This document shows positions 5,487 through 62,335 of a stretch of DNA of 64,000 nt, piece by piece. Source of the DNA: Armatimonadota bacterium. Its GTDB lineage: Bacteria > Armatimonadota > HRBIN16. Positions within the stretch are counted from its first letter, which is position 1. Every line of letters starts with the position of its first letter. Made by a program: the position numbers and the translations under genes. Below the pieces are notes generated by a model. The model had not been told where the DNA came from. It worked only from the letters and a program-made list of their open reading frames with translations, and searched no databases. Where the stretch lies: positions 2,434,980 through 2,498,979 of the forward strand of contig OY781964.1 of assembly GCA_963677485.1 (NCBI GenBank), read 5' to 3'.

Positions 5487-5695
5487 TCTCGATTCGCGGA
5501 TGATGCGGGTTTCTGGGGGCCTTCGGTCCAATCTGTCCGAACCGGCGGGAATGGTAACCTGCGAATGGATCCGACAGTAATATTACCTGTTTTTGGGCAT
5601 ACCGAGGTGTAAACGAAGTATCTATGAAGCTTATATGTGTTACGATTATAGACGATATCTAGTCTTTTTAGCGATCATATGTGGAGGGCCAACAA

Positions 5696-6376
5696 ATGAT
5701 ACATCGTAAAGCCTTTACGATCTTGGAGCTGCTAGTCGTCATTGCCATTATTGGTGTGTTGGCCGCAGTGTTATTCCCGGTCATCATGGGCGCCAAGCAG
5801 AAGAGCAAAAAGGTAGTGTGTCTATCGAACCTTCACCAGTGCGGTGTAGCACTTAGGTTGTATATGGACGACTATGGCACCAATGTTCCGCCAGACACCG
5901 CTGTGGCACGTGAACTACTTAAGAAACAACCCACCTGCTGTCCCAACGACAAAGAGTGGACAAAAGGCTGCACACAGCAGTTTGGACCGCCCATGATTGG
6001 ATCCTATGCCTATGTTCGCGCTATTCCCGGCATGGAGAAAGTGCCTGATGATAAACTCACCCATTTTTTCAACTTGAAGAGTTCGGATTTTTATAACAAC
6101 GAAGGTGTGATATGGATGGCTGATGTATTCCATTCGTCGCACGGAATACCTGCTCCATACTATGTTGATAAGGAAAGCCTCCCCGAGTATTGGAAAAGAG
6201 TAAACACAGACCGAACTTACATGCCAGACAATCAGATCCGACTGTTCGATGACGGTCATGTGAGTATGAGTAAACCTACCACCATACATACTGCTATTGG
6301 ATCGACGAACATCGGATTTGCCTGGGGAACTGTGTTTGAGCTAGACGACGGCATGAGCAATGAATTCCAGCACTAG
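5696..6376 (+). CDS. Prepilin-type N-terminal cleavage/methylation domain protein. It is a pseudopilin-like, DUF1559-type protein with an H-X9-DG motif.
   Basis: N-terminus reads MIHRKAFTILELLVVIAIIGVLAAVLFPV, followed by ...KVVCLSNLHQCGVALRLY. The C-terminal end carries ...RLFDDGHV. GGAGGG lies 8 nt upstream of the ATG at 5696. The region is AT-richer than its flanks. Confidence 0.8.
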   Translation: MIHRKAFTILELLVVIAIIGVLAAVLFPVIMGAKQKSKKVVCLSNLHQCGVALRLYMDDYGTNVPPDTAVARELLKKQPTCCPNDKEWTKGCTQQFGPPMIGSYAYVRAIPGMEKVPDDKLTHFFNLKSSDFYNNEGVIWMADVFHSSHGIPAPYYVDKESLPEYWKRVNTDRTYMPDNQIRLFDDGHVSMSKPTTIHTAIGSTNIGFAWGTVFELDDGMSNEFQH

Positions 6377-10270: not shown

Positions 10271-10496
10271 TAACCCTCCGCTGCGGCGGCGGCACCTCGC
10301 CGGGCAAGAAGCTTAAGAACGAAAAACCCAGCAGATTTACCCGTCCTGCATCCCTTGCACAACCCCGATATACCAAAATGCACCCAATCGGTAGTATGAT
10401 ATGTTGGTATAGAGTGTCGGTGTTTGGCAATTATAACAAAGCTGATCACGCCCCTATCCTTAGTATTCCGGCATTCCGAAGAAAGGATCAGTGTTC

Positions 10497-13400
10497 ATGG
10501 CACGTCCGCGTATCACCATTGACGGCAACGAAGCGGCAGCTTATGTTGCATACAAGACTAACGAAGTCATCGCCATCTATCCCATCACACCTTCATCCAA
10601 TATGGGTGAGTGGTCGGATGAATGGGCAGCCAAGCATGATAAGAACATCTGGGGCGTAGTACCCAGCGTGAAAGAGATGCAGAGTGAGGGAGGCGCCGCT
10701 GGTGCCGTGCATGGTGCCCTTCAAGCTGGATCGCTGACCACCACATTCACCGCAAGCCAAGGCTTGCTGTTGATGATCCCGAACATGTTTAAAATCGCTG
10801 GCGAACTCACCAGCACCGTGTTCCACATCGCAGCCCGAACAATCGCTACCCATGCACTTAGCATCTTCGGTGATCATTCGGACGTCATGTCCACCCGAAG
10901 CTGCGGCTGGGCCATGCTGAGCAGCAACAACGTGCAAGAGGTCATGGACCTGGCGTTGATTGCTCAAGCCGCCACTCTGGAAGCCAGGGTGCCCTTCATA
11001 CACTTTTTTGACGGTTTCCGCATTAGCCACGAGTTGTCCAAAATCGAGAAGTTGACCGATGAGGACATCAGGGCTATGATTGACGACGATCTCGTGAATG
11101 CGCACCGACAGCGCGGGCTTAACCCAGAGCACCCGGTGATGCGCGGTACCGCCCAAAACCCAGACGTCTTCTTCCAGGCTCGTGAAGCCTGCAACCCATA
11201 TTACGCCGCCACTCCCGCCATCGTTCAGAAGGCTATGGACAAGTTTGCCTCCATCGTTGGCCGCCAGTACAAGCTGTTCGATTATGTGGGTGCTCCAGAC
11301 GCAGAGCGTGTGGTCATCGCCATGGGCAGCGGTTGTGAAACGGTGGAAGAGACCGTTGAAGCACTGTTGGCTAAGGGCGAAAAGGTCGGCGTGCTGAAGG
11401 TTCGCCTCTACCGTCCATTCTCACCAGAGGATATGATTGCCGCCATCCCGACCACCGTGAAGAGCCTCGTGGTGCTGGACCGCACCAAAGAGCCCGGTGG
11501 ATTGGGCGAGCCTTTATATCAAGACGTGATGACCGCCTATGCAGAACGCTACAACGAAACCGGCATCCTGCCTCCCAAGATCATCGGCGGCCGCTACGGA
11601 CTGAGCTCCAAGGAGTTCACCCCAGCTATGGCCAAGGCTGTGCTGGATGAGCCGTTGAAGGCCCATCCCAAGAACCACTTCACAGTGGGCATTGATGATG
11701 ACGTGTCTCATACCAGCCTGGAGGTTCCTGAATTCCACGTGGAGATGAATGACGTCACCCGTGCCATGTTCTGGGGACTGGGAGCCGACGGTACCGTTGG
11801 TGCCAACAAGAACTCCATCAAGATCATCGGTGAAGATACCGACAACTACGCTCAGGGCTACTTCGTGTATGACAGCAAGAAGTCCGGCGCAGCCACCACC
11901 TCCCACCTTCGGTTTGGCCCACGCCCCATCAAGGCGCACTACCTTATCCAGAAGGCGAACTTCATCGCTGTTCACCAGAGCAACTTTATTGAGCGATACG
12001 ATGTGCTGGGAGCGGCTGCACAAGATGGCGTGTTCCTTCTGAATACCCCATTCAGCGCCGACGAAGTCTGGGATCAGATGCCCAAGACGGTGCAAGAGCA
12101 CATTATCAATAAGAACCTTCGCTTCTTCGTGATCAACGCTTACGATGTGGCTAAGAAGACCAACATGGGTGTGCGCATTAACACCATCATGCAGACATGC
12201 TTCTTTGCCATCTCCGGTGTTCTTCCTCGCGAAGAGGCTATTGAGCACATCAAGAAGTCCATTAAAAAAACTTACGGTAAGCGCGGTGATGCCATCGTAG
12301 CACAGAACTTCGCTGCTGTGGATGCCGCTCTGGAATACATGCATCAGGTCAGCGTTCCATCAACCGTCAGCAGCAAGATCGATATGCGCGCAGCGGTACC
12401 GGAGAATGCTCCTGAGTTCGTGAAGGGCCTGACGGCTGAGATCATCGCAGGACGCGGAGACGCTTGCCCTGTGAGCATGATGCCAGTCGATGGCACCTTC
12501 CCCACAGGCACCACCCAGTGGGAACGCCGCAACATCGCTCTGGACGTACCGGTCTGGGATCCCAGCACCTGTATCCAGTGCGGCAAGTGTTCGCTGGTCT
12601 GCCCGCACGGTGTCATCCGCAGCAAGGTTGTCAGTGACGCTGAGCTGGCTGGTGCTCCTGAAGGCTTCCAGACCACTGCTGCCAAGTGGAAAGAGTTCGA
12701 TGGCAAGAAATACACGCTTGCTGTGTCGGTGGAAGACTGCACTGGCTGCGGCTTATGCGTAAACTACTGCCCCGCCAAGAACAAGAGCAACGTCAGCCTG
12801 AAGGCCATCAACATGACCCCTCTGGCCGACGTGCGCGAAAAGGGCATGGCCGACTGGGACTTCTTCAAGAGTCTCCCAGCCACCGACCGTGCTAGCGGGT
12901 TGCGCTTCAACATGACCAAGAACCTGCAGTTGCTTGAACCCTACTTTGAGTTCAGCGGTGCCTGTTCTGGTTGCGGCGAAACACCATACGTGAAGGTGAT
13001 CAGCCAGATGTTTGGCGATCGCATGATCGTGGCCAACGCCACCGGATGCTCCAGTATCTACGGCGGTAACCTGCCCACCACCCCGTGGTGCCAGGACAAG
13101 GACGGCCGCGGTCCGGCATGGGCCAACAGCCTGTTTGAGGACAACGCCGAGTTCGGTCTGGGTATGCGTCTGGCTGTTGATCAGCAGCGCGGCTACGCCG
13201 TCAGCATGTTGACCAAGCTGCAAGACAAACTGGGTGCGGAACTGGTTGACGCGATCGTTCATGCCGACCAGAGCAGCGAAGAGGGCATCGCCGCTCAGCG
13301 CGAGCGAGTGGCTGCCGTCAAGGCGAAGATCACCGCTTGTGATTGTGCAGACTGCACGAACCTTCTGGGTGTTTTGGACCAGATGGTGAAGCGCAGTGTG

Positions 13401-14054
13401 TGGATATTCGGCGGCGACGGTTGGGCATACGACATCGGCTACGGCGGTTTGGATCACGTGCTGGCTAGCGGCCTGAACGTGAACGTGATGGTTCTGGACA
13501 CCGAGGTGTATTCCAACACCGGTGGACAGGCCAGCAAGGCCACTCCGTTCGGTGCTGTCGCGAAGTTCGCCTCCGGTGGTAAAGAGACCGGCAAGAAGGA
13601 CCTCGGTCTGATGCAGTCCTCCTACGGTAACGTGTATGTGGCTCAGATCGCCATGGGTGCCAACGAGGGCCAGGCTTTACGCGCCATTCAGGAAGCGGAA
13701 GCTTATGAAGGCCCGTCCCTGATCATTGCGTATTCGCACTGTATCGCCCACGGTATCGACATGGGTAACGGCCTTGCACAGCAGAAACTGGCTGTGGATT
13801 GCGGTTACTGGCCGCTGTGGCGTTACAACCCGTCATTAGTTGCCGAAGGCAAGAACCCATTCGTGCTTGATTCCGGCGATCCCAAGATCGCGTTGAAGGA
13901 CTACATTTCAACCGAAGGCCGGTACAAGATACTCATGAAGTCTAACCCGGAAGCTGCTGCGGCCCTAGCTAAGCTATCGCAAGCAGCCGTTACCGAGCGC
14001 CTGAAGCACTTCAAAATGCTAGCGGCTGCCCCCGGCAGTGCAGAACAGGCCTAA
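10497..14054 (+). CDS. nifJ: Pyruvate:ferredoxin (flavodoxin) oxidoreductase, single-polypeptide PFOR.
   Basis: 1185 aa. [34 protein letters not shown] is the canonical PFOR N-terminus. Two 4Fe-4S ferredoxin motifs ([26 protein letters not shown]) and TPP-binding [10 protein letters not shown] are present. GAAAGGA lies 9 nt upstream of the ATG at 10497. Confidence 0.93.
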
Positions 14055-14071
14055 CGGAGAAGGAGATGACA

Positions 14072-15070
14072 ATGGATCTGAGAACCACATACCTGGGGTT
14101 AGAGTTAAAGAACCCCATCGTCGCCTCTTCGTCACCCGTCACATACACTGTGGAGGGCATTAAGAAGCTGGCAGACGCCGGAGCTGGTGCCATCGTGATG
14201 CACTCTTTGTTTGAAGAGCAGATCACCATGGAAGGTCAGCACCTCGACTACTACCTCACCTCAGGCACGGAGAGCTCCGCGGAAGCGATCAGCTATTTCC
14301 CTGAAGCTGAAGACTATAAAGTGGGCCCAGAGGCCTATCTTGACCTGATCAAACAGGGCAAGAAGCTGGTGGATGTGCCCATCATCGGCAGCTTGAACGG
14401 TGTGAGCACAGGCGGCTGGGTGGACTACGCGTCCAAAATCCAGTCGGCTGGTGCTGATGCGCTTGAGCTGAACCTCTATTATCTGCCCACCGATCCCAAG
14501 ATCACCAGCAGCGAGATCGAGCAGGTCTATCTAGACGTGCTGACCGATGTCAAGAAGGCTGTGAGCATCCCTGTGGCAATGAAGCTGAGCCCATTCTTCA
14601 GCGCAACGCCCTGGGTGATCCGCCGATTTGCAGAGGCCGGTGCGGATGGTCTGGTCATGTTCAACCGCTTCTACCAGCCTGACCTCGATCTGGAGGCCCT
14701 TGAGGTCGTTCCCGATCTGAAGTTGAGCAAGAGCTATGAGATGCGCCTGGCCCTTCGCTGGGTGGCGATCATGAGCGGCAAGGTGAAGTCCGATCTGGCA
14801 CTGACCACCGGTGTGCATACTGGCCAGGACGCGATCAAAGCGTTGATGGCTGGTGCGAAGGTGGCCATGGTGGCCAGTGAGCTGCTTGAGAACGGTCCGA
14901 AGCGCATTACAGCTATGCTGCAGGAGATGACCGACTGGCTGACGGAACACGACTACGAGAGTGCCGCGCAGTGCATCGGCAGTATGAGCCAGCAGCACGT
15001 GGCGGAACCCGCCGCGTTTGCCCGCGCGAACTACCTGAAGACTCTGAAGAGCTACCAGCTCCGCTGGTAG
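14072..15070 (+). CDS. Dihydroorotate dehydrogenase-like (class 1 DHOD / dihydropyrimidine-dehydrogenase-like) FMN TIM-barrel protein.
   Basis: [13 protein letters not shown]...PIIGSLNG...[10 protein letters not shown] pattern of the DHOD family. GGAGAAGGAG lies 6 nt upstream of the ATG at 14072. The gap after the PFOR stop is 17 nt. Confidence 0.75.
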
Positions 15071-15085: not shown

Positions 15086-15128
15086 AATCATCCCCCCCGG
15101 GCTCCCCGGCGGGGGATGATTGCGTTTT
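15086..15128 (+). terminator. Rho-independent terminator after the PFOR / DHOD-like operon.
   Basis: Hairpin AATCATCCCCCCCGG-GCTCC-CCGGCGGGGGATGATT, then TGCGTTTT. Confidence 0.8.
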
Positions 15129-15177
15129 AGTATCTTACCAACCATATTTTGAACACGGTGTATAGAATATTCTGATA

Positions 15178-16713
15178 TTACGCACCACACAAAGCGTTAG
15201 GCACAACGATCTGGCGAATAGCAAGTGCTGCCATGATGATACGCTTGCCAAGTGCAGTGAGGTAGTATTTGTAGCGTTTACCGCATTTTTTAACGAGCCG
15301 GAATACTCGGCATCGCTTGATGAAGTATGATATCTGAGAGCTGGACATCTGCGGTAAGGCTTTTTGAAGCATACGGTTTGTGATCCCGCTGATGCATCCC
15401 TCTCCGCGAGCAAGTGCAATGAGACATTCCAAATCCTTCTTGAGGAAAAGGTTGAATCCTCGATACGAGCGATGATCACGGGTGGTCGAGGTCGCGATTT
15501 TGATGATCTGATGTTCACCATCGCTGTTGTCATCAAGGGCGGAAAGAAAGTCAAGATATCTGTTGTTTGCAGATAATAACAGTTCCCTCAATGGAGGAAG
15601 GCTGTAGATGGTCTTTTGCATAGGGGCGTATTTAATCTCAGTCGTCCCATCATGATGTTCTACCTCACGGTAGTGTTTAAATTCAGAGACGTCATTCACA
15701 GTCGTCTCGATACGCAAGATTATCCCTTGCTTGTCATACATTTTGATAGAAGCCCATCCCATGTAGTGTTTGATGCGCGTGCCTTGTATGCGGCGATCGA
15801 ACTTGTAGTCAGTGCCGATCTCAGCGAGTGTTCGCCCATCAAGTTTCTTACCAAGAAACATCGCGATAGACTCTGGCGTTACCGTATGTATCGCTGTTTT
15901 GACTAGATTATCGTAGATGGCTTTGAGGTCTTCGGCGCGTTTGAACACGATGTCTGTAGCATATTCCACCTGCATTAGCGACCAATGATATGAATTGTCA
16001 GCAAGCCGTATCACGGGGCAATACATTCTGGCAAATGCATCCAGCGCATGGTGCAGCTTATCAGCAGGAAAAGCGTCTGCCAGCCTCTGAGCACAGCTAA
16101 AGTCGTCGATTTTTACAAAGGCGTTGTCCAGTGGAGTGAAAACTACTCCCTCGGATTGAAGGCAATGCGCGAGATAATTGTGTCCATTACAATAGAATTG
16201 CAGACGGAAGGGCACCCAGGTCGGAACTCGTAGATAGCACAGTCCAAACTCTGCATCGATGAAATAGAAGTAGTAATGAAGACACTTGGTCTCCTTGATA
16301 TTCAGCCGGGTTTTGTGGGTAATCTTGTCGTGCCACGGGGTGTATGCAGGACATTTTTCCAACACTGAGAATATGTGGACGAGACCGGGGTGACACCCTC
16401 GACTACTAATGATCTCTTTGATGCGGTCTTCTTTTCGAAATGAAGAGGCACGGCGTATATACTCAATTTCAATGCTGTTGGTAACGGCAAGGCGTTCCGC
16501 ATTGGCTTTGATCTCATCTCGTAGAGGTTCGGCAAATTCCTTAGGAAAGTCAAATAGCCTGATGTTGCGTTGATGAAGATAGATGCCCATTCCGTCGCTA
16601 TGACACCAGCCTGGGATTGTACCGGTGATAACTATGCGGTCGAAGCATGAATATACCCCAGCTATCTGCTTTGCATAGCGTTCTTGAAGTGATGTCATTC
16701 TGGGCAACCTCAC
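15178..16713 (-). CDS. AT-rich orphan hypothetical protein (511 aa) of likely foreign origin; could be transposase-like or defence-related. Family not recognised.
   Basis: Long ORF whose base composition is visibly AT-richer than its neighbours (by eye, not computed). It lies between the operon terminator and word-repeat island W3. No Walker, HNH or DDE motif could be assigned with confidence. Confidence 0.55.
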   Translation of the reverse strand: MRLPRMTSLQERYAKQIAGVYSCFDRIVITGTIPGWCHSDGMGIYLHQRNIRLFDFPKEFAEPLRDEIKANAERLAVTNSIEIEYIRRASSFRKEDRIKEIISSRGCHPGLVHIFSVLEKCPAYTPWHDKITHKTRLNIKETKCLHYYFYFIDAEFGLCYLRVPTWVPFRLQFYCNGHNYLAHCLQSEGVVFTPLDNAFVKIDDFSCAQRLADAFPADKLHHALDAFARMYCPVIRLADNSYHWSLMQVEYATDIVFKRAEDLKAIYDNLVKTAIHTVTPESIAMFLGKKLDGRTLAEIGTDYKFDRRIQGTRIKHYMGWASIKMYDKQGIILRIETTVNDVSEFKHYREVEHHDGTTEIKYAPMQKTIYSLPPLRELLLSANNRYLDFLSALDDNSDGEHQIIKIATSTTRDHRSYRGFNLFLKKDLECLIALARGEGCISGITNRMLQKALPQMSSSQISYFIKRCRVFRLVKKCGKRYKYYLTALGKRIIMAALAIRQIVVPNALCGA

Positions 16714-16792
16714 GAAAGGGTGTTTGAATGTATATTACGTGGCGAATGCAATCATTCCTTTTTTGGTTGCGGCTAAGCCGCCTTAGGGGGGG

Positions 16793-17150
16793 TGGATTGT
16801 CTGAACCACGGATTACGCGGATAATTCGGATGACACGGATGGGGAGGCGGGTTTGTCACGCGAAGACGCGAAGACGCGAAGGGGGTGGGGAGTGTGTCAC
16901 GCGTAGACGCGAAGACGCGAAGGGGAGGCGGGTTGGACGGATGCGAGGGCGCGAAGACGCGAAGGGGCAAGGCGGGTTGGATGTATGCGAGGGCGTGGCG
17001 GGTATGGTGCGTATGGCTACCCCTGGGAACGCCAATCTCCCGATTGGCATTTCCCTTCCCCATTCGCGTTCATTCGTGTTCATTCGCGGTTAAAATGAGC
17101 CAGCAACAGGTCGGGTAGGATGAGTAGGACGAGTAAGGTAAGGGTAGGGC
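16793..17150. repeat. Word-repeat island W3, the richest in the window. It contains CTGAACCACGGATTACGCGGAT, GTGTCACGCGAAGACGCGAAGACGCGAAGG x3, CATTCGCGTTCATTCGTGTTCATTCGCGGTT and GGTAGGATGAGTAGGACGAGTAAGG.
   Basis: Direct reading. The modules are shared with islands at 26425, 44183, 53463, 57714 and 62350. The ORFs called here (16728-17093 and others) are repeat artefacts. Confidence 0.85.
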
Positions 17151-60382: not shown

Positions 60383-60648
60383 AAATCGTTCTCCATTCAT
60401 CGCATCGTGGCGAAAAGGTATTCGGAAGAGTTTGTGCCCTACTGGGATGCGCTTACGGCAGCGTGAGCTAGCCCAAGATTCACGAACTGATGTTATTTTA
60501 CACTCAACTACAATTATACTGACTTTATATTGGCATACTATGGTATCAACTTTGATAAAGCAATGTTTTCGTGTTTGCCGCCGTTATTGTAAAATGATAA
60601 CAACTGGTGACACCGCACATTACCGTGTTTGCAGTAGGGAGTTATTCG

Positions 60649-61521
60649 ATGGACCACATCATAGGACCGCTGACACAGCTCTATTTATTACTCATGGTGG
60701 CATACATCGCCTTCATCATCGTGAATCATAATCGCACGGCATCTGGGCAACCACCTATACGCGCTGCCGTCTGGAGCTACACCGATGCCTGGCCGATGGT
60801 TCACGCTGTGGCGATTATATCGATGCTGGGCACACTGACGGCCGCCATGTTTAGAACGGGTAAAACCGGCTCTGGTCGATTGGATTTCCTGACTGTTTTG
60901 CTGCCTTCAGCGTTCATGCAGAATGCAGGCATGGTCATCGTGGTGCTGTTGTTTGTGTGCGCGTTATACCGAATCAGCGGCAAACAGCTTGGATTTACAT
61001 TTGACGCCAAGCAACTTATGAAGGGGATCGCGATCGGTGTGCCGACTTTCGTTGCTGTGGCGCTCTTGGCCATCACTTTGATTGCGGTGTTACACGGGCT
61101 ATTTGGGGCCGCTGCCGTGAACAAACTTGTCGAAATAAGTGACAAGCTAAACGGTGCGAACCAGATCATGGGTGATTTGAAAACAAACAAAGAGCTGCTG
61201 GGATTTATCATCATGGCCTCGGTGTTGGCACCGATTGGTGAGGAGTTCTTTTTCAGAGGCTGGTTATTCAACATGATCAAAATCCGAACCACCAAAATTG
61301 GATTGGCAATCTGGGGATCGGCGGTGTTGTTTGCGCTCATTCATGTGGCCCCTTTATCGATTATGATGATCATACCGCTTGGCGCGTGGCTGGCATGGAG
61401 TTACCATATATCGGGAAGCATATGGAAGAACATAGGCATTCACTCATCGTATAATTTGATGATGTGCATCATATACGTAGTAGCGAAGTCTTATGGCTTA
61501 GATATCGACAAGGTAATATAG
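60649..61521 (+). CDS. CPBP-family intramembrane glutamic endopeptidase (CAAX protease / Abi domain).
   Basis: IGEEFFFRGWLF (EExxxR motif) and FALIHV (second His motif), with multiple transmembrane helices. AGGGAG lies upstream of the ATG at 60649. Confidence 0.8.
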   Translation: MDHIIGPLTQLYLLLMVAYIAFIIVNHNRTASGQPPIRAAVWSYTDAWPMVHAVAIISMLGTLTAAMFRTGKTGSGRLDFLTVLLPSAFMQNAGMVIVVLLFVCALYRISGKQLGFTFDAKQLMKGIAIGVPTFVAVALLAITLIAVLHGLFGAAAVNKLVEISDKLNGANQIMGDLKTNKELLGFIIMASVLAPIGEEFFFRGWLFNMIKIRTTKIGLAIWGSAVLFALIHVAPLSIMMIIPLGAWLAWSYHISGSIWKNIGIHSSYNLMMCIIYVVAKSYGLDIDKVI

Positions 61522-61522
61522 C

Positions 61523-62335
61523 ATGGAAAAAAATAGAACTGGTATTATAGCGGCGTATGTGCTGCTTCTGATGTTTGGATTAGGTTTCATCGTCCGCTAC
61601 AGCGGTTTGAGCCTAATTGGAGTGAAGCAGACGCAAGTGGCCTTCTCAAAGATAATGGACCAATCGGGTGACAGCCAGGCGTTGTACGAAGAGGCACTTC
61701 GGCGTTTAGGCGATCGGGCTGAGATTACGAAACAACAACAAGTATTGGGCATTCTCGCCAGTATGTCGGCATACCGTGCTGTCAGGCAGGTTGCCAGTCA
61801 CCTGCTCAGTCAGCCCGATATTGCCAATGACAAAGTCAACCGCCGTATGCTTTTGTCGATGAGAGGGGCAGCCTCCCTGGAAACCGGTTATATGAAAGAG
61901 GGTCTGGCTGACTATGAGGCCAACTGGAAGGCAAATTCTAGCGAAGCGAAAGCCAAAAACGACTTAGCTTATGCGCTGGTGCTGAACAAAGTGGACCTGG
62001 ACCGTGCCGAGGGGTTGGCTGCGCAAGCCTACAACAGTGAGAACAACGCCAGTTTCGCAGACACTCTGGGATGGATAGCCATTTACCAGGGGAACTACAG
62101 CAAAGGGTTGCAGTTACTGCTGGATGCATCTGGCGATGTGCCGGATGCGTATGAAGTCAGATATCATGCCGGAGTGGCATACTGGGCCACGGGTGACTAT
62201 GCCAAAGCTGCGACCGAATTGACGATGGCGATCAAGCTTTACAAGACGAATCGCCGTGGTACGAACTCCGCCTATCAAGCGGTACTCGATCTAGTGAACG
62301 CCAAAACGCCTTTCAGGACGGAGCTGATTCCGTAG
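61523..62335 (+). CDS. Membrane-anchored TPR-repeat protein.
   Basis: N-terminal transmembrane helix, then TPR-like helical repeats (AYALVLNKVDLDRAEGLAAQAY..., YHAGVAYWATGDYAKAATEL). There is a 1-nt gap after the CPBP gene, indicating an operon. Confidence 0.6.
   Translation: MEKNRTGIIAAYVLLLMFGLGFIVRYSGLSLIGVKQTQVAFSKIMDQSGDSQALYEEALRRLGDRAEITKQQQVLGILASMSAYRAVRQVASHLLSQPDIANDKVNRRMLLSMRGAASLETGYMKEGLADYEANWKANSSEAKAKNDLAYALVLNKVDLDRAEGLAAQAYNSENNASFADTLGWIAIYQGNYSKGLQLLLDASGDVPDAYEVRYHAGVAYWATGDYAKAATELTMAIKLYKTNRRGTNSAYQAVLDLVNAKTPFRTELIP

What the first reader, a model, noticed from the sequence alone, without database searches (positions are those of the whole stretch)
15178..16713. AT-rich 511-aa orphan gene between a strong terminator and a repeat island: likely foreign, function unknown
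This minus-strand ORF (MTSLQERYAKQIAGVYSCFDRIVITGTIPGW...) is visibly AT-richer than the flanking PFOR operon and membrane-protein genes (by eye, not computed). It is flanked on one side by the operon terminator at 15086-15128 and on the other by the largest word-repeat island (16793-17150). It has no recognisable partner gene.

I could not assign it to a transposase, restriction-enzyme, ATPase or nuclease family. The architecture (lone, compositionally deviant, about 500 aa, in a repeat-bounded slot) is what single-gene mobile elements, orphan defence genes or ISNCY-type transposases look like.
Basis: partly seen in the sequence, partly recalled or inferred. Interest (0 to 1): 0.55.

Follow-up and report, generated by a model that had tools for sequence, protein, structure and literature searches.

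The report
Unclassified insertion sequence with Rep-like transposase
The "orphan" gene is the single gene of a 1.66-kb jumping-DNA element, present in at least 12 copies in this genome and in thousands of microbes, which no database labels as mobile and whose enzyme looks like a plasmid rolling-circle replication nickase rather than any known transposase.

Summary
The ORF and its low G+C (47.0% against 56.1%) are real, but the gene is not an orphan. It is the only gene of a 1,656-bp mobile element (window 15129-16784). The host genome holds at least 12 copies that are 99.2-100% identical with unrelated flanks, and two of them split genes. Relatives form 11,042 clusters at 50% identity, span more than 15 bacterial phyla and one archaeon, and are multi-copy in several long-read genomes.

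The element has no terminal inverted repeats and makes no target-site duplication. It inserts at CCT|AA. Its left tip is a covarying hairpin 3 nt inside the junction, and its right tip ends in ...GGTAAGnnACT. A ~135-nt miniature copy made of the two ends alone exists.

No Pfam, NCBIfam, PADLOC, PHROGs or PDB-sequence match exists, and pipelines call the protein a MarR or ArsR regulator. The AlphaFold model has two TBP-like repeats, and Foldseek hits TBP-fold proteins. The four catalytic residues of Rep_trans rolling-circle nickases (D46, D142, Y191, E214 in RepC) have ordered, context-matched counterparts (D20, E245, Y321, E331). All four are among only 16 positions invariant down to 27% identity.

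Best reading: an unclassified insertion-sequence family whose transposase is a TBP-fold, Rep_trans-like tyrosine nickase. The mobility is shown; the enzyme chemistry and mechanism are inferred.

The parts
15129..16784 (-). The inserted mobile element, 1,656 bp, read on the minus strand as 5'-AAGGCGGCTTAGCCGC...GGTAAGATACT-3'
   Evidence: Twelve copies in the host genome share exactly CCTAAGG...GATACTA (1,660 bp, 99.2-100% identical) with unrelated flanks. Reconstruction of two split genes shows that CCTA belonged to the target, so the net insertion is 1,656 bp.
16785..16787 (-). Target-derived CCT directly 5' of the left end. Together with A at 15128 it forms the target CCT|A(A); in this window the site is CCCCCCCT|AAAACGC.
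   Evidence: Target logo from unique insertion sites: C-3 in 45/46, C-2 in 46/46, T-1 in 42/46; A+1 in 51/58 and A+2 in 45/58.
16769..16781 (-). Left-end hairpin GGCGGC-TTA-GCCGC, which starts 3 nt inside the junction
   Evidence: In 50 distinct left ends, pair 7-19 is CG 41 / GC 6 / UA 3 and pair 8-18 is CG 46 / UA 4, with none broken. There are 13 double-sided changes against 1.2 expected, and 0/500 shuffles reach that.
16757..16768 (-). Conserved single-stranded tail AACCAAAAAAGG after the hairpin (family consensus AACCAAACAGG)
   Evidence: Invariant or nearly invariant columns 20-28 of alignment A2. Its function is not tested.
15178..16698 (-). The single gene: a 506-aa putative transposase (stop codon included)
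   Evidence: P0001 is 506 aa and 100% identical.
15529..16698 (-). Residues 1-390: two TBP-like beta-alpha-beta4-alpha repeats (12-182 and 238-387). Candidate active site: D20 (16639-16641), E245 (15964-15966), Y321 (15736-15738), E331 (15706-15708).
   Evidence: AF2 model with pLDDT ~90 over this region. Foldseek hits TBP-fold proteins. Motif correspondence with RepC. All four residues are invariant in 57 sequences down to 27% identity.
15199..15441 (-). Residues ~420-500: probable C-terminal winged-helix DNA-binding domain
   Evidence: Helical, but modelled with low confidence, pLDDT ~50. Distant members give sub-threshold HxlR and HVO_A0261_N hits. This is the source of the 'MarR/ArsR' labels.
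15129..15145 (-). Right-end terminal box ATGGTTGGTAAGATACT (family consensus TGGTAAGGGACT). The element ends at ...ACT.
   Evidence: The base after ACT varies among otherwise identical copies within one genome, which places the boundary after CT.
15086..15128 (+). Not part of the element: the PFOR-operon terminator hairpin plus GCGTTTT. The element sits exactly after the T-run.
   Evidence: Strong hairpins occur in 12/58 right flanks against 10% expected (p=0.011) and in 0/58 left flanks.

Best explanation
Window 15129-16784 is one copy of an autonomous, single-gene insertion sequence from a very large family that no library classifies. SHOWN: it is mobile, with many near-identical copies at unrelated sites, some inside genes. 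It has asymmetric ends without inverted repeats. It makes no target-site duplication. It inserts at CCT|AA, so that a CT precedes the left end and the right end itself finishes in ACT. A covarying hairpin lies 3 nt inside the left junction. A miniature derivative made of the two ends alone exists. INFERRED: the 506-aa protein is the transposase. It would be a TBP-fold tyrosine nickase of the Rep_trans / Rep-Arvir kind, with a D20-E245-E331 metal triad and Y321 as nucleophile, all on beta-strands, followed by a winged-helix domain. PROPOSED MECHANISM, by analogy with Rep_trans initiators and with IS91 and IS200/IS605: the enzyme nicks the top strand after CT next to the left-end hairpin (an origin-like site) and becomes linked to the 5' phosphate. 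It cleaves again after the ACT of the right end and joins the two ends into a single-stranded circle carrying ACT|AAC. It then reverses the chemistry at a CCT|AA site, preferably one followed by a hairpin that mimics its own left end. Host replication makes the second strand.
For: Mobility: at least 12 copies in the host genome, 99.2-100% identical over 1,660 bp with sharp edges. The same holds in six other genomes. Empty sites: the split group II intron RT and the split GAF/PAS kinase are restored only by residues of length 1 mod 3. Alignment to the GsI-IIC RT (FFDRVNHDIL-M) selects CCTA, so there is no duplication. The uninterrupted arm of an acidobacterial REP palindrome agrees. Target logo. 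Left-end hairpin covariation. Miniature copy: L061. Same ends on a cultured Paraburkholderia plasmid copy at 47% identity. Protein: no hit to any known transposase model. AF2 core pLDDT ~90 with two beta-alpha-beta4-alpha repeats. Best PDB hits are TBPs. BFVD hits are TBP-fold proteins, top hit A0A2N9QVX7 at E 2.6e-5 and prob 1.00, the same top hit reported for RepSNJ2 in PMC13107129. Rep_trans enzymes have the TBP fold, a Tyr on a beta-strand and a D-D-E triad (PMC4797284; PMC5714925). RepC LSFD46AMTIVG / TRLD142LAFDF / IRIY191NKK / WRVE214IEL correspond to SCFD20RIVITG / MQVE245YATDIVF / IKMY321DKQ / LRIE331TTV. All four, plus K323 and R329, are among the 16 invariant columns of A5 (P=7.5e-4). 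The pT181 origin reads AACCGGC-TACTCTAATA-GCCGGTT, and its nick lies at the loop tip. Hairpins are enriched only on the side of the target that corresponds to the left-end hairpin.
Against: No sequence or profile similarity to Rep_trans or DUF7845: Pfam gives nothing at E<=1 and hhalign gives prob 0.2-0.7%. However, the accepted pair Rep-Arvir versus Rep_trans also fails this test, at 3.7%. Solved Rep_trans structures are not among the top 50 PDB Foldseek hits. The domain-only model finds nothing. TM-scores of the TBP-fold hits are low (0.2-0.5). Rep_trans motif II is not evident, motif I is QxE rather than RxD, and motif III lacks its final E. I could not superpose coordinates, so the residue correspondence rests on local sequence context and predicted strands. 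Invariant Y143 and Y145 are unaccounted for and could be the real nucleophile. No circular junction was found. No replication-strand orientation bias was seen. The right end has no supported hairpin. Nothing here shows catalysis.
Confidence: 0.6

Rival explanations
1. It is an insertion sequence, but the protein is a recombinase of an unrelated, unknown type. It would exchange both strands of double-stranded DNA around a 2-nt CT core, with the logic of IS110/IS1111 or IS607, and the resemblance to Rep_trans would be coincidental.
For: CT is present at both junctions, and bases just 3' of it are inherited from the target, as with a crossover dinucleotide. There are no inverted repeats and no duplication. 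REP-like palindromes are frequent targets, as for many IS110 members (PMC12288879, listed). There is no strand-orientation bias. The link to Rep_trans is not statistically supported at sequence level.
Against: No DEDD, serine- or tyrosine-recombinase domain is found by Pfam or NCBIfam or by fold search. The target is the same short CCT|AA across all phyla and subfamilies, so it is not re-programmed as with bridge or seek RNAs. Rfam finds no RNA. Four Rep_trans-equivalent residues being invariant is unlikely by chance.
Confidence: 0.2
2. The protein is only a DNA-binding factor, a TBP-like saddle plus a winged helix. It would mark the ends, and cleavage and joining would be done by host or helper enzymes, so the element would not be autonomous in the chemical sense.
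For: TBP itself is non-catalytic. The best structural matches are TBPs. The C-terminus looks like a wHTH. No catalytic domain is recognised by any library.
Against: The element spreads in more than 15 phyla and an archaeon while carrying only this gene, so a universally available helper would be needed. The invariant residues are an Asp/Glu/Glu/Tyr/Lys/Arg set typical of an active site rather than of a binding surface. Miniature copies lacking the gene imply that the gene product acts in trans on the ends.
Confidence: 0.1
3. The unit is primarily a tiny rolling-circle replicon, a plasmid or satellite of about 1.66 kb with a Rep gene and a hairpin origin. It would integrate secondarily, and the many 1.6-2.5 kb metagenome contigs would be free circles rather than collapsed repeats.
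For: Rep_trans-like protein plus a hairpin next to the nick site is the layout of a minimal RCR replicon. Most family members sit on contigs of roughly element size.
Against: Every copy examined on a long contig is chromosomally integrated with target flanks. Short contigs start or stop at the element ends or carry flanks, as collapsed repeats do. No contig contains a full RE-LE junction. No separate single-strand origin is evident.
Confidence: 0.07
4. It is an ordinary resident gene, a MarR/ArsR-type regulator or an orphan defence gene, that merely has low G+C.
For: Source annotations call it 'MarR family' or 'ArsR family transcriptional regulator'.
Against: Twelve identical copies at unrelated loci, some inside genes. 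It is 506 aa, of which only ~80 could be a wHTH. No MarR or ArsR Pfam hit and no PADLOC hit.
Confidence: 0.01

Closest known systems
IS91 / ISCR family (rolling-circle insertion sequences, HUH Y2 transposase)
   Same: Single gene, 1.5-1.8 kb. No terminal inverted repeats and no target duplication. Distinct origin-like and terminator-like ends. Insertion next to a short specific sequence that abuts one end. A tyrosine nickase related to plasmid replication initiators (PMC5714925).
   Different: The IS91 transposase is an HUH enzyme with its Tyr on a helix. Here there is no HUH or Y2_Tnp match, the fold is TBP-like, and the candidate Tyr and acidic triad lie on beta-strands. The target is CCT|AA rather than GTTC/CTTG.
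IS200/IS605 family (HUH Y1, single-strand 'peel and paste')
   Same: Asymmetric ends, a hairpin near the end, insertion 3' of a fixed tetra- or pentanucleotide, no duplication, and an RE-LE joint that resembles the target.
   Different: No Y1_Tnp domain. Only the left end has a supported hairpin. No replication-strand bias was detected. The protein is about three times larger and carries a wHTH.
Rep_trans initiators and relaxases (PF02486: RepC/RepD of pT181/pC221, CTXphi RstA, Tn916/ICEBs1 relaxases)
   Same: TBP-like beta-sheet fold. The candidate D-(D/E)-E triad plus Tyr occur in the same order on strands. Motifs N', III (YxK) and IV (LRxE) match. A basic residue lies two positions before the Tyr. 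The nick is at a CT|AA step beside a GCCGG stem (pT181 origin sequence; the exact nick position is from my memory of Koepsel/Khan and Thomas et al.). A separate DNA-binding domain follows.
   Different: No detectable sequence homology. Repeat 1 is much larger. Motif II is unclear. The known roles are replication and conjugation, never transposition. In pT181 the nick lies in the hairpin loop, whereas here it lies 3 nt 5' of the stem.
Rep-Arvir / DUF7845 (RepSNJ2 of Natrinema virus SNJ2; PMC13107129)
   Same: Architecture of an N-terminal TBP-fold nuclease followed by a MarR-like wHTH. It depends on a nearby DNA hairpin. It gives the same Foldseek behaviour, with nothing in the PDB and the same BFVD top hit A0A2N9QVX7. 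It gets the same 'MarR family' mislabel. Its catalytic motif KHYYM recalls the invariant H-Y-Y-F-Y strand here.
   Different: Archaeal virus and plasmid replication proteins of about 600 aa. No profile similarity. They are not multi-copy transposable units.
IS110 / IS1111 family
   Same: No inverted repeats, no duplication beyond a CT core, and frequent insertion into REP-like palindromes.
   Different: That family uses a DEDD + Ser recombinase with an element-encoded guide RNA and a subgroup-specific target. Neither the domains nor a variable target are seen here.

Membership tests
Insertion sequence (autonomous single-gene transposable element) | Several near-identical copies at unrelated loci in one genome, with sharp common boundaries | tested here: met
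   At least 12 copies in the host genome, 99.2-100% identical over 1,660 bp. Six further genomes behave the same way.
Insertion sequence (autonomous single-gene transposable element) | Insertions interrupt otherwise intact sequence, so that an empty site can be reconstructed | tested here: met
   The group II intron RT and the GAF/PAS kinase are restored by excision. A REP palindrome arm agrees.
Insertion sequence (autonomous single-gene transposable element) | The encoded protein catalyses the element's own transposition | not testable with these tools
   Inferred only. It is the sole gene, and miniature end-only derivatives exist.
Rep_trans superfamily (PF02486) / Rep-Arvir (PF25227) | Match to the family profile | tested here: not met
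   No Pfam hit at E<=1. hhalign prob 0.2-0.7%. In the control, Rep-Arvir versus Rep_trans also fails, at 3.7%.
Rep_trans superfamily (PF02486) / Rep-Arvir (PF25227) | TBP-like beta-sheet catalytic fold | tested here: inconclusive
   The model shows two beta-alpha-beta4-alpha repeats. TBP hits: PDB E 0.015, prob 0.87; BFVD E 2.6e-5, prob 1.0. TM-scores are only 0.2-0.5, and RepDE is not in the top 50.
Rep_trans superfamily (PF02486) / Rep-Arvir (PF25227) | Catalytic Tyr on a beta-strand plus three acidic metal ligands on separate strands, in the order D...D...Y...E | tested here: met
   D20 (strand 12-27), E245 (strand 238-252), Y321 (strand 316-323) and E331 (strand 327-334). The local contexts match RepC. 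All are invariant to 27% identity. This is a motif and secondary-structure correspondence, not a 3-D superposition.
Rep_trans superfamily (PF02486) / Rep-Arvir (PF25227) | Motif II (T/SxY/ExG) and the full motif III (YxKxxE) | tested here: not met
   Only R-I-(E/Q)-G at 303-306 and Y-D-K-Q-G-I are present. There is no E at +5.
Rep_trans superfamily (PF02486) / Rep-Arvir (PF25227) | Cleavage site associated with a DNA hairpin | tested here: met
   The junction lies 3 nt 5' of a covarying hairpin. The geometry differs from pT181, where the nick is in the loop.
IS91 / ISCR | HUH motif and Y2 transposase domain | tested here: not met
   No Pfam or NCBIfam hit. No HUH fold among the Foldseek hits.
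IS91 / ISCR | No inverted repeats, no duplication, and a fixed short target abutting one end | tested here: met
IS200/IS605 | Y1 HUH TnpA | tested here: not met
IS200/IS605 | Sub-terminal hairpins at both ends | tested here: not met
   The left-end hairpin is supported. No consensus structure exists at the right end.
IS200/IS605 | Orientation bias with respect to replication (lagging-strand template) | tested here: inconclusive
   Flank GC-skew sign is 28 against 25, and neighbouring copies lie in opposite orientations. This is a weak test, because replication origins are unknown.
IS110/IS1111 | DEDD (RuvC-like) plus Tnp domains, and an element-encoded guide RNA with a subgroup-specific target | tested here: not met
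   No domains, no Rfam RNA, and a constant CCT|AA target.
MarR/ArsR transcriptional regulators (the label used by annotation pipelines) | Small (~100-170 aa) wHTH protein matching the MarR or ArsR profiles | tested here: not met
   The protein is 506 aa with no MarR or HTH_5 hit. Distant members give only sub-threshold HxlR-type signal in the last ~40 residues.
Known anti-phage defence systems | Match to a PADLOC model | tested here: not met
ISNCY (ISfinder's holding class for unclassified IS) | Similarity to an ISfinder entry | not testable with these tools
   ISfinder is not available here. NCBIfam models derived from it do not hit.

The most novel reading that the evidence does not exclude
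This is a new catalytic class of prokaryotic transposase. A TBP-fold, Rep_trans-superfamily tyrosine nickase, so far known only from plasmid and phage replication and from conjugative relaxases, would drive rolling-circle or single-strand transposition of one of the most widespread insertion-sequence families in environmental bacteria and archaea. The family has stayed invisible because every pipeline calls the gene a MarR/ArsR regulator or a hypothetical protein.
Probability: 0.5. Interest if true: 0.88.

Novelty: new variant of a known kind. Interest (0 to 1): 0.8.

Why it matters
1. Annotation. Thousands of genomes and metagenome bins carry an active mobile element that is annotated as a regulator or a hypothetical gene. 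Insertion-sequence censuses, repeat masking and explanations of assembly breaks all miss it.

2. Biology of transposition. All known rolling-circle and single-strand transposases (IS91, IS200/IS605, Helitrons) are HUH enzymes. A Rep_trans-type transposase would show that the second, structurally unrelated family of rolling-circle nickases was also recruited for transposition. It would link plasmid and phage replication proteins, conjugative relaxases and insertion sequences within one TBP-fold superfamily that spans bacteria and archaea.

3. Testability. The element is small and has a single gene, with defined ends of about 30-45 nt and a 5-nt target. It is present on a plasmid of a cultured Paraburkholderia strain, so the hypothesis can be tested directly.

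4. Tools. A compact nickase-integrase that recognises a short sequence plus a hairpin could be useful for handling single-stranded DNA.

Tried and rejected
- **Curated libraries.** Pfam, NCBIfam, PADLOC, PHROGs and PDB sequence searches with the single protein and with a 41-sequence profile gave nothing.
- **Terminal inverted repeats or direct repeats.** None were found around this copy alone. The answer came only from comparing copies.
- **Right-end hairpin.** I proposed one by eye (TTGCC-ATTTTG-GCAA), but RNAalifold does not support it.
- **Outward -10 promoter in GGTAAGATACT.** Rejected, because the last position is not conserved across the family and the scan finds no promoter there.
- **Nick-site mini-hairpin across the RE-LE joint (GGG-ACTAA-CCC).** It fits only some subfamilies, by inspection, so I dropped it.
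- **Known RNA in the element.** Rfam finds none.
- **Replication-strand bias.** None was detected.
- **Hairpin-adjacent targeting as a rule.** It is only a tendency: 21% of right flanks against 10% expected.
- **Fold search with the N-terminal domain alone against the PDB.** Nothing at E<0.25.
- **Profile-profile comparison with RepC, a RepC-family alignment, RepSNJ2 and a DUF7845 alignment.** Not significant. The control shows that the method cannot link even the accepted pair.
- **Supplementary alignment of PMC13107129.** Only the first ~50 columns are stored.
- **Circular or tandem junction contigs.** Only a solo right-end remnant (L055) and a miniature copy followed by a full element (L061) were found.
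- **Distant mycobacterial relative (L093).** It is degraded, with no recognisable ends, and I did not pursue it.
- **Other low-G+C patches of the window.** They are ordinary genes, not further copies.
Full report
**1. The observation**

The minus-strand ORF 15178-16713 exists. It is the longest frame, 511 aa from a GTG. The identical database protein has 506 aa (P0001), so translation most likely starts at the ATG at 16698, which has a GAGG 9 nt upstream. Its G+C is 0.470 against 0.561 for the window, and only 0.7% of windows of the same length are as low. The inverted repeat at 15086-15121 followed by GCGTTTT, and the G-rich tandem arrays at 16807-17135, are both real. No curated library recognises the protein: Pfam, NCBIfam, PADLOC, PHROGs and PDB sequences all return nothing.

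**2. It is not an orphan**

They are all about 505-508 aa, 57-77% identical, and carry no Pfam domain. Most lie on contigs of only 1.6-2.5 kb, the signature of a repeat that breaks assemblies. An exhaustive profile search found 11,042 clusters at 50% identity with E<=1e-3, of which 1,430 have E<=1e-30. A scan of one genome per species found 554 loci. They come from these groups:

- Acidobacteriota, Nitrospirota, Planctomycetota, Chloroflexota, Armatimonadota and Actinomycetes
- Bacillota (Pelotomaculum, Desulfitobacteriia; also Hydrogenispora)
- Thermodesulfobacteriota/Deltaproteobacteria, and Gamma- and Alphaproteobacteria
- Spirochaetota, Gemmatimonadota, Caldithrix, Kiritimatiellia/Victivallales, Methylomirabilis and Rokubacteria
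- one archaeon (Ca. Bathycorpusculum)

**3. It is a mobile element**

The contig from which the window comes (5.19 Mb) carries at least 12 copies (L081-L092; L086 is the window locus). They are 99.2-100% identical over exactly 1,660 bp, CCTAAGGCGGC...GGTAAGATACTA, and unrelated outside that block. This places the window copy at 15128-16787. Six other long-read genomes show the same pattern, with 2-7 copies each, 99.5-100% identical over 1,622-1,727 bp. The window holds one copy and no stray ends.

**4. Anatomy of the ends**

There are no terminal inverted repeats.

- **Left end.** The end upstream of the gene is almost the same in all phyla: C-CT|AAC-[CCGGC NNA GCCGG]-AACCAAACAGG. The stem covaries. 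Pair 7-19 is CG 41 / GC 6 / UA 3 and pair 8-18 is CG 46 / UA 4, with none broken. There are 13 double-sided changes against 1.2 expected, and 0 of 500 shuffles reach that. The window copy carries the GC variant (GGCGGC-TTA-GCCGC, 16769-16781).
- **Right end.** It is conserved in sequence (an ATTTTG box about 25 nt from the tip, then TGGTAAGGGACT), but a hairpin there is not supported.
- **Boundary.** The base or bases after ...ACT differ among otherwise identical copies of one genome (A, T, C or G). So the element ends at ACT and begins after the CT that precedes AAC.

**5. Target and absence of duplication**

Two host-genome copies split genes. Removing the shared block restores a 487-aa group II intron reverse transcriptase and a 902-aa GAF/PAS kinase only if C, CCTA or CCTACTA is left behind. 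I queried the PDB with the CCTACTA version. HMMER opened a one-residue gap against the GsI-IIC RT, which reads FFDRVNHDIL-M, so CCTA is the correct residue. The intact site was therefore ...GATAT-CCTA-ATGG..., the insertion added 1,656 bp, and nothing was duplicated.

An independent case agrees. In acidobacterial genomes the element sits in one arm of a REP-like palindrome, and the other arm (AACCGCTCCCTCACGGTCGCGGCTC) equals left flank plus right flank.

Across unique sites the logo is C-3 45/46, C-2 46/46 and T-1 42/46, then the element, then A+1 51/58 and A+2 45/58. Ten further contigs obey the same rule. In the window the site is CCCCCCCT|AAAACGC on the minus strand. On the plus strand this is directly after the four T of the PFOR-operon terminator.

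Very stable hairpins occur in 12 of 58 right flanks, against 10% of control segments (p=0.011). None occur in the 58 left flanks, and the paired right-versus-left test gives p=1.3e-4. The target therefore tends to look like the element's own left tip: CT|AA followed by a hairpin. This is a tendency, not a rule.

**6. Derivatives**

In L061 a ~135-nt unit consists of a left end (with yet another compensatory stem, CCAG/CTGG), about 60 nt, and a right end. It lies directly upstream of a full-length element and shares the ACT|AAC joint with it. L055 has a solo right-end remnant in the same position. So the ends alone appear sufficient in cis, and right-end tips are themselves targets. No contig with a complete RE-LE junction was found.

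**7. The protein**

The AlphaFold2 model is confident for residues 1-390 (pLDDT about 90) and poor for the helical C-terminus (about 50). The order of elements gives two beta-alpha-beta4-alpha units, at residues 12-182 and 238-387, which is the topology of TATA-binding protein.

- Foldseek against the PDB gave no significant hit. The best hits were TBPs (1ais_A, E 0.015, prob 0.87).
- Against predicted viral structures the significant hits were TBP-fold proteins. They include giant-virus TBPs, VETF-L-like proteins and ASFV B263R/B175L homologues. The top hit was A0A2N9QVX7 (E 2.6e-5, prob 1.00). TM-scores are low (0.2-0.5).
- Distant family members show only sub-threshold winged-helix signal in the last ~40 residues. 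This explains the 'MarR/ArsR family transcriptional regulator' names given by pipelines.

**8. The link to rolling-circle nickases**

Three papers supply the background.

- PMC13107129 reports that Rep_trans initiators (PF02486) have the TBP fold. It also reports that the archaeal Rep-Arvir family (DUF7845) is an N-terminal TBP-fold nuclease followed by a MarR-like wHTH and depends on a nearby hairpin. Its authors obtained nothing from the PDB and the same BFVD top hit, A0A2N9QVX7.
- Carr et al. [quoted passage not shown]
- Wawrzyniak et al. (PMC5714925) list the motifs: N' (D), I (RxD), II (T/SxY/ExG), III (YxKxxE) and IV (W/LxRxE).

I extracted RepC from pT181 and compared it with the window protein:

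| RepC (Rep_trans) | Window protein | Predicted strand |
|---|---|---|
| LSFD46AMTIVG | SCFD20RIVITG | 12-27 |
| TRLD142LAFDF | MQVE245YATDIVF | 238-252 |
| IRIY191NKK | IKMY321DKQ | 316-323 |
| WRVE214IEL | LRIE331TTV | 327-334 |

The order is the same, and the Tyr and the last Glu sit on the two arms of one beta-hairpin. The basic residues flanking the Tyr (R189 and K193 in RepDE) correspond to K319 and K323.

In an alignment of 57 family members diverging to 27% identity, only 16 of 506 positions are invariant. They include D20, E245, Y321, K323, R329 and E331. The chance that four residues drawn from the 88 positions invariant in the close alignment all survive is 7.5e-4.

The pT181 origin reads AACCGGC-TACTCTAATA-GCCGGTT. 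The nick lies at the tip of that loop, and an 11-nt oligonucleotide stays on the protein, which fits TCT|AATAGCCGGTT. The exact CT|AA position is from my memory of the primary papers. So a canonical Rep_trans enzyme cuts a CT|AA step beside a GCCGG stem arm, and this element's junctions are (C/A)CT|AAC beside CCGGC...GCCGG.

**9. What weakens the link**

- There is no sequence or profile similarity. In my control, however, the published pair Rep-Arvir versus Rep_trans is equally undetectable (prob 3.7%), so this negative carries little weight.
- Solved Rep_trans structures are not among the 50 best PDB hits.
- A model of residues 1-236 alone finds nothing.
- Motif II is not evident, motif I is QxE, and motif III lacks its last Glu.
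- I could not superpose coordinates.
- Invariant Y143 and Y145, on the strand K-C-L-H-Y-Y-F-Y that recalls the KHYYM of RepSNJ2, remain unexplained. They could be a second nucleophile or the real one.

**10. Mechanism**

Shown: mobility, the end structure, the target, the lack of duplication, and trans-mobilisable ends.

Inferred: the protein is a metal-dependent tyrosine nickase. It would cut the top strand after CT next to the left-end hairpin, stay attached to the 5' end, cut again after the right-end ACT, and join the ends into a single-stranded circle carrying ACT|AAC. It would then integrate by the reverse reaction at CCT|AA, with the second strand made by the host. This is the logic of IS91 and IS200/IS605, run with the other family of rolling-circle nickases.

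The main rival is a double-strand exchange around a CT core, as in IS110 or IS607. It fits the junction pattern and the REP targets. It has no support from domains or folds, and the target is not re-programmed between subfamilies.

I saw no replication-strand bias. Flank GC skew splits 28 against 25, and neighbouring copies lie in opposite orientations. This speaks against a strict IS608-type dependence on the lagging-strand template but not against rolling-circle transposition.

**11. Novelty**

Seven literature searches turned up no description of this element or of any Rep_trans-type transposase. Reviews list only replication and conjugation roles for the family. ISfinder could not be queried, so an existing ISNCY-type entry cannot be excluded.

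I file it as a new variant of a known kind: an insertion sequence with rolling-circle-type ends. It has a substantial chance of being a new catalytic class of transposase.

**12. Verdict**

The gene is foreign and belongs to a single-gene mobile element. It is neither an orphan, nor a defence gene, nor bounded by the neighbouring repeats.

- Confidence that it is an active or recently active insertion sequence: above 0.95.
- Confidence that its transposase is a Rep_trans-like TBP-fold tyrosine nickase: about 0.55-0.6.
- Confidence that it moves through a single-stranded circle: about 0.45.

Noticed in passing
window 16807-17135: G-rich repeat island directly next to the element's left end: ACGCGAAG x3 (twice), a 44-nt unit x2, CATTCGCGTT x2.8 and CACGGATGA x3.9. 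It is not part of the element, because it is absent from the other 11 copies. Its own nature is unknown.
   Followed up: partly
window 15086-15128: The terminator hairpin of the PFOR (10491-14054) / DHO_dh-like (14066-15070) operon keeps its stem and four T. The insertion removed whatever followed the T-run, so the strict terminator scan no longer calls it.
   Followed up: partly
L092 2202-5258 and L091 1242-5546 (same genome as the window): One copy of the element splits the reverse transcriptase of a group II intron (close to GsI-IIC RT, E 1.5e-125). Another splits a GAF/PAS histidine kinase. So the host carries at least two kinds of mobile element, and the insertions inactivate genes.
   Followed up: yes
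L061 ~2700-2835: Miniature (~135 nt) derivative made of a left end plus a right end without the gene, followed directly by a full-length element. This suggests that a population of non-autonomous MITE-like copies may exist.
   Followed up: partly
L008, L014, L016, L035, L058, L080 (right flanks): Several Acidobacteriota genomes share a REP-like palindrome, AACCGCTCCCTYACGGTCGCGGCTC...GAGCCGCGACCGTGAGGGAGCGGTT, that is a recurrent target of the element.
   Followed up: partly
L032-L034 (2908-4605) and L033 ~2334: In a Sedimentisphaerales genome the shared block extends 7 nt to the left (CTAATAC) and 42 nt to the right, through a hairpin that also occurs alone elsewhere in that genome. This is either REP targeting or 3'-flank transduction, which rolling-circle transposons are known to do.
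   Followed up: partly
L097-L100, L106: One element is found with flank combinations A-X, A-Y, B-X and B-Z in related peat or soil metagenomes. This reflects either recombination between copies or chimeric assemblies across the repeat.
   Followed up: no
window 16264-16284 (residues 139-145): The strand C-L-H-Y-Y-F-Y carries Y143 and Y145, which stay invariant down to 27% identity. They have no counterpart in Rep_trans and recall the catalytic KHYYM of RepSNJ2. They may be a second active-site tyrosine.
   Followed up: partly
L094 (Paraburkholderia phytofirmans OLGA172 plasmid pOLGA1, 252808-254322): A cultured strain carries a 47%-identical copy with the same ends, annotated 'ArsR family transcriptional regulator'. 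It is a convenient experimental source.
   Followed up: partly
plasmids of Rhodococcus, Burkholderia/Caballeronia and Mycobacterium (L093): Very distant relatives (22-25% identity), annotated as hypothetical proteins. The M. riyadhense copy looks degraded. Whether this branch is also mobile was not determined.
   Followed up: partly
proteins P0453-P0500: Archaeal DUF7845/Rep-Arvir replication nickases are also auto-annotated as 'MarR family transcriptional regulator'. This is the same systematic mislabel, caused by the wHTH being the only recognisable part.
   Followed up: no
window 5681-6376, 60607-61521, 61523-62335: The other low-G+C patches of the window encode ordinary genes: a pilin-like N_methyl protein, an Rce1-like protease and a TPR protein. 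They are not further copies of the element.
   Followed up: yes
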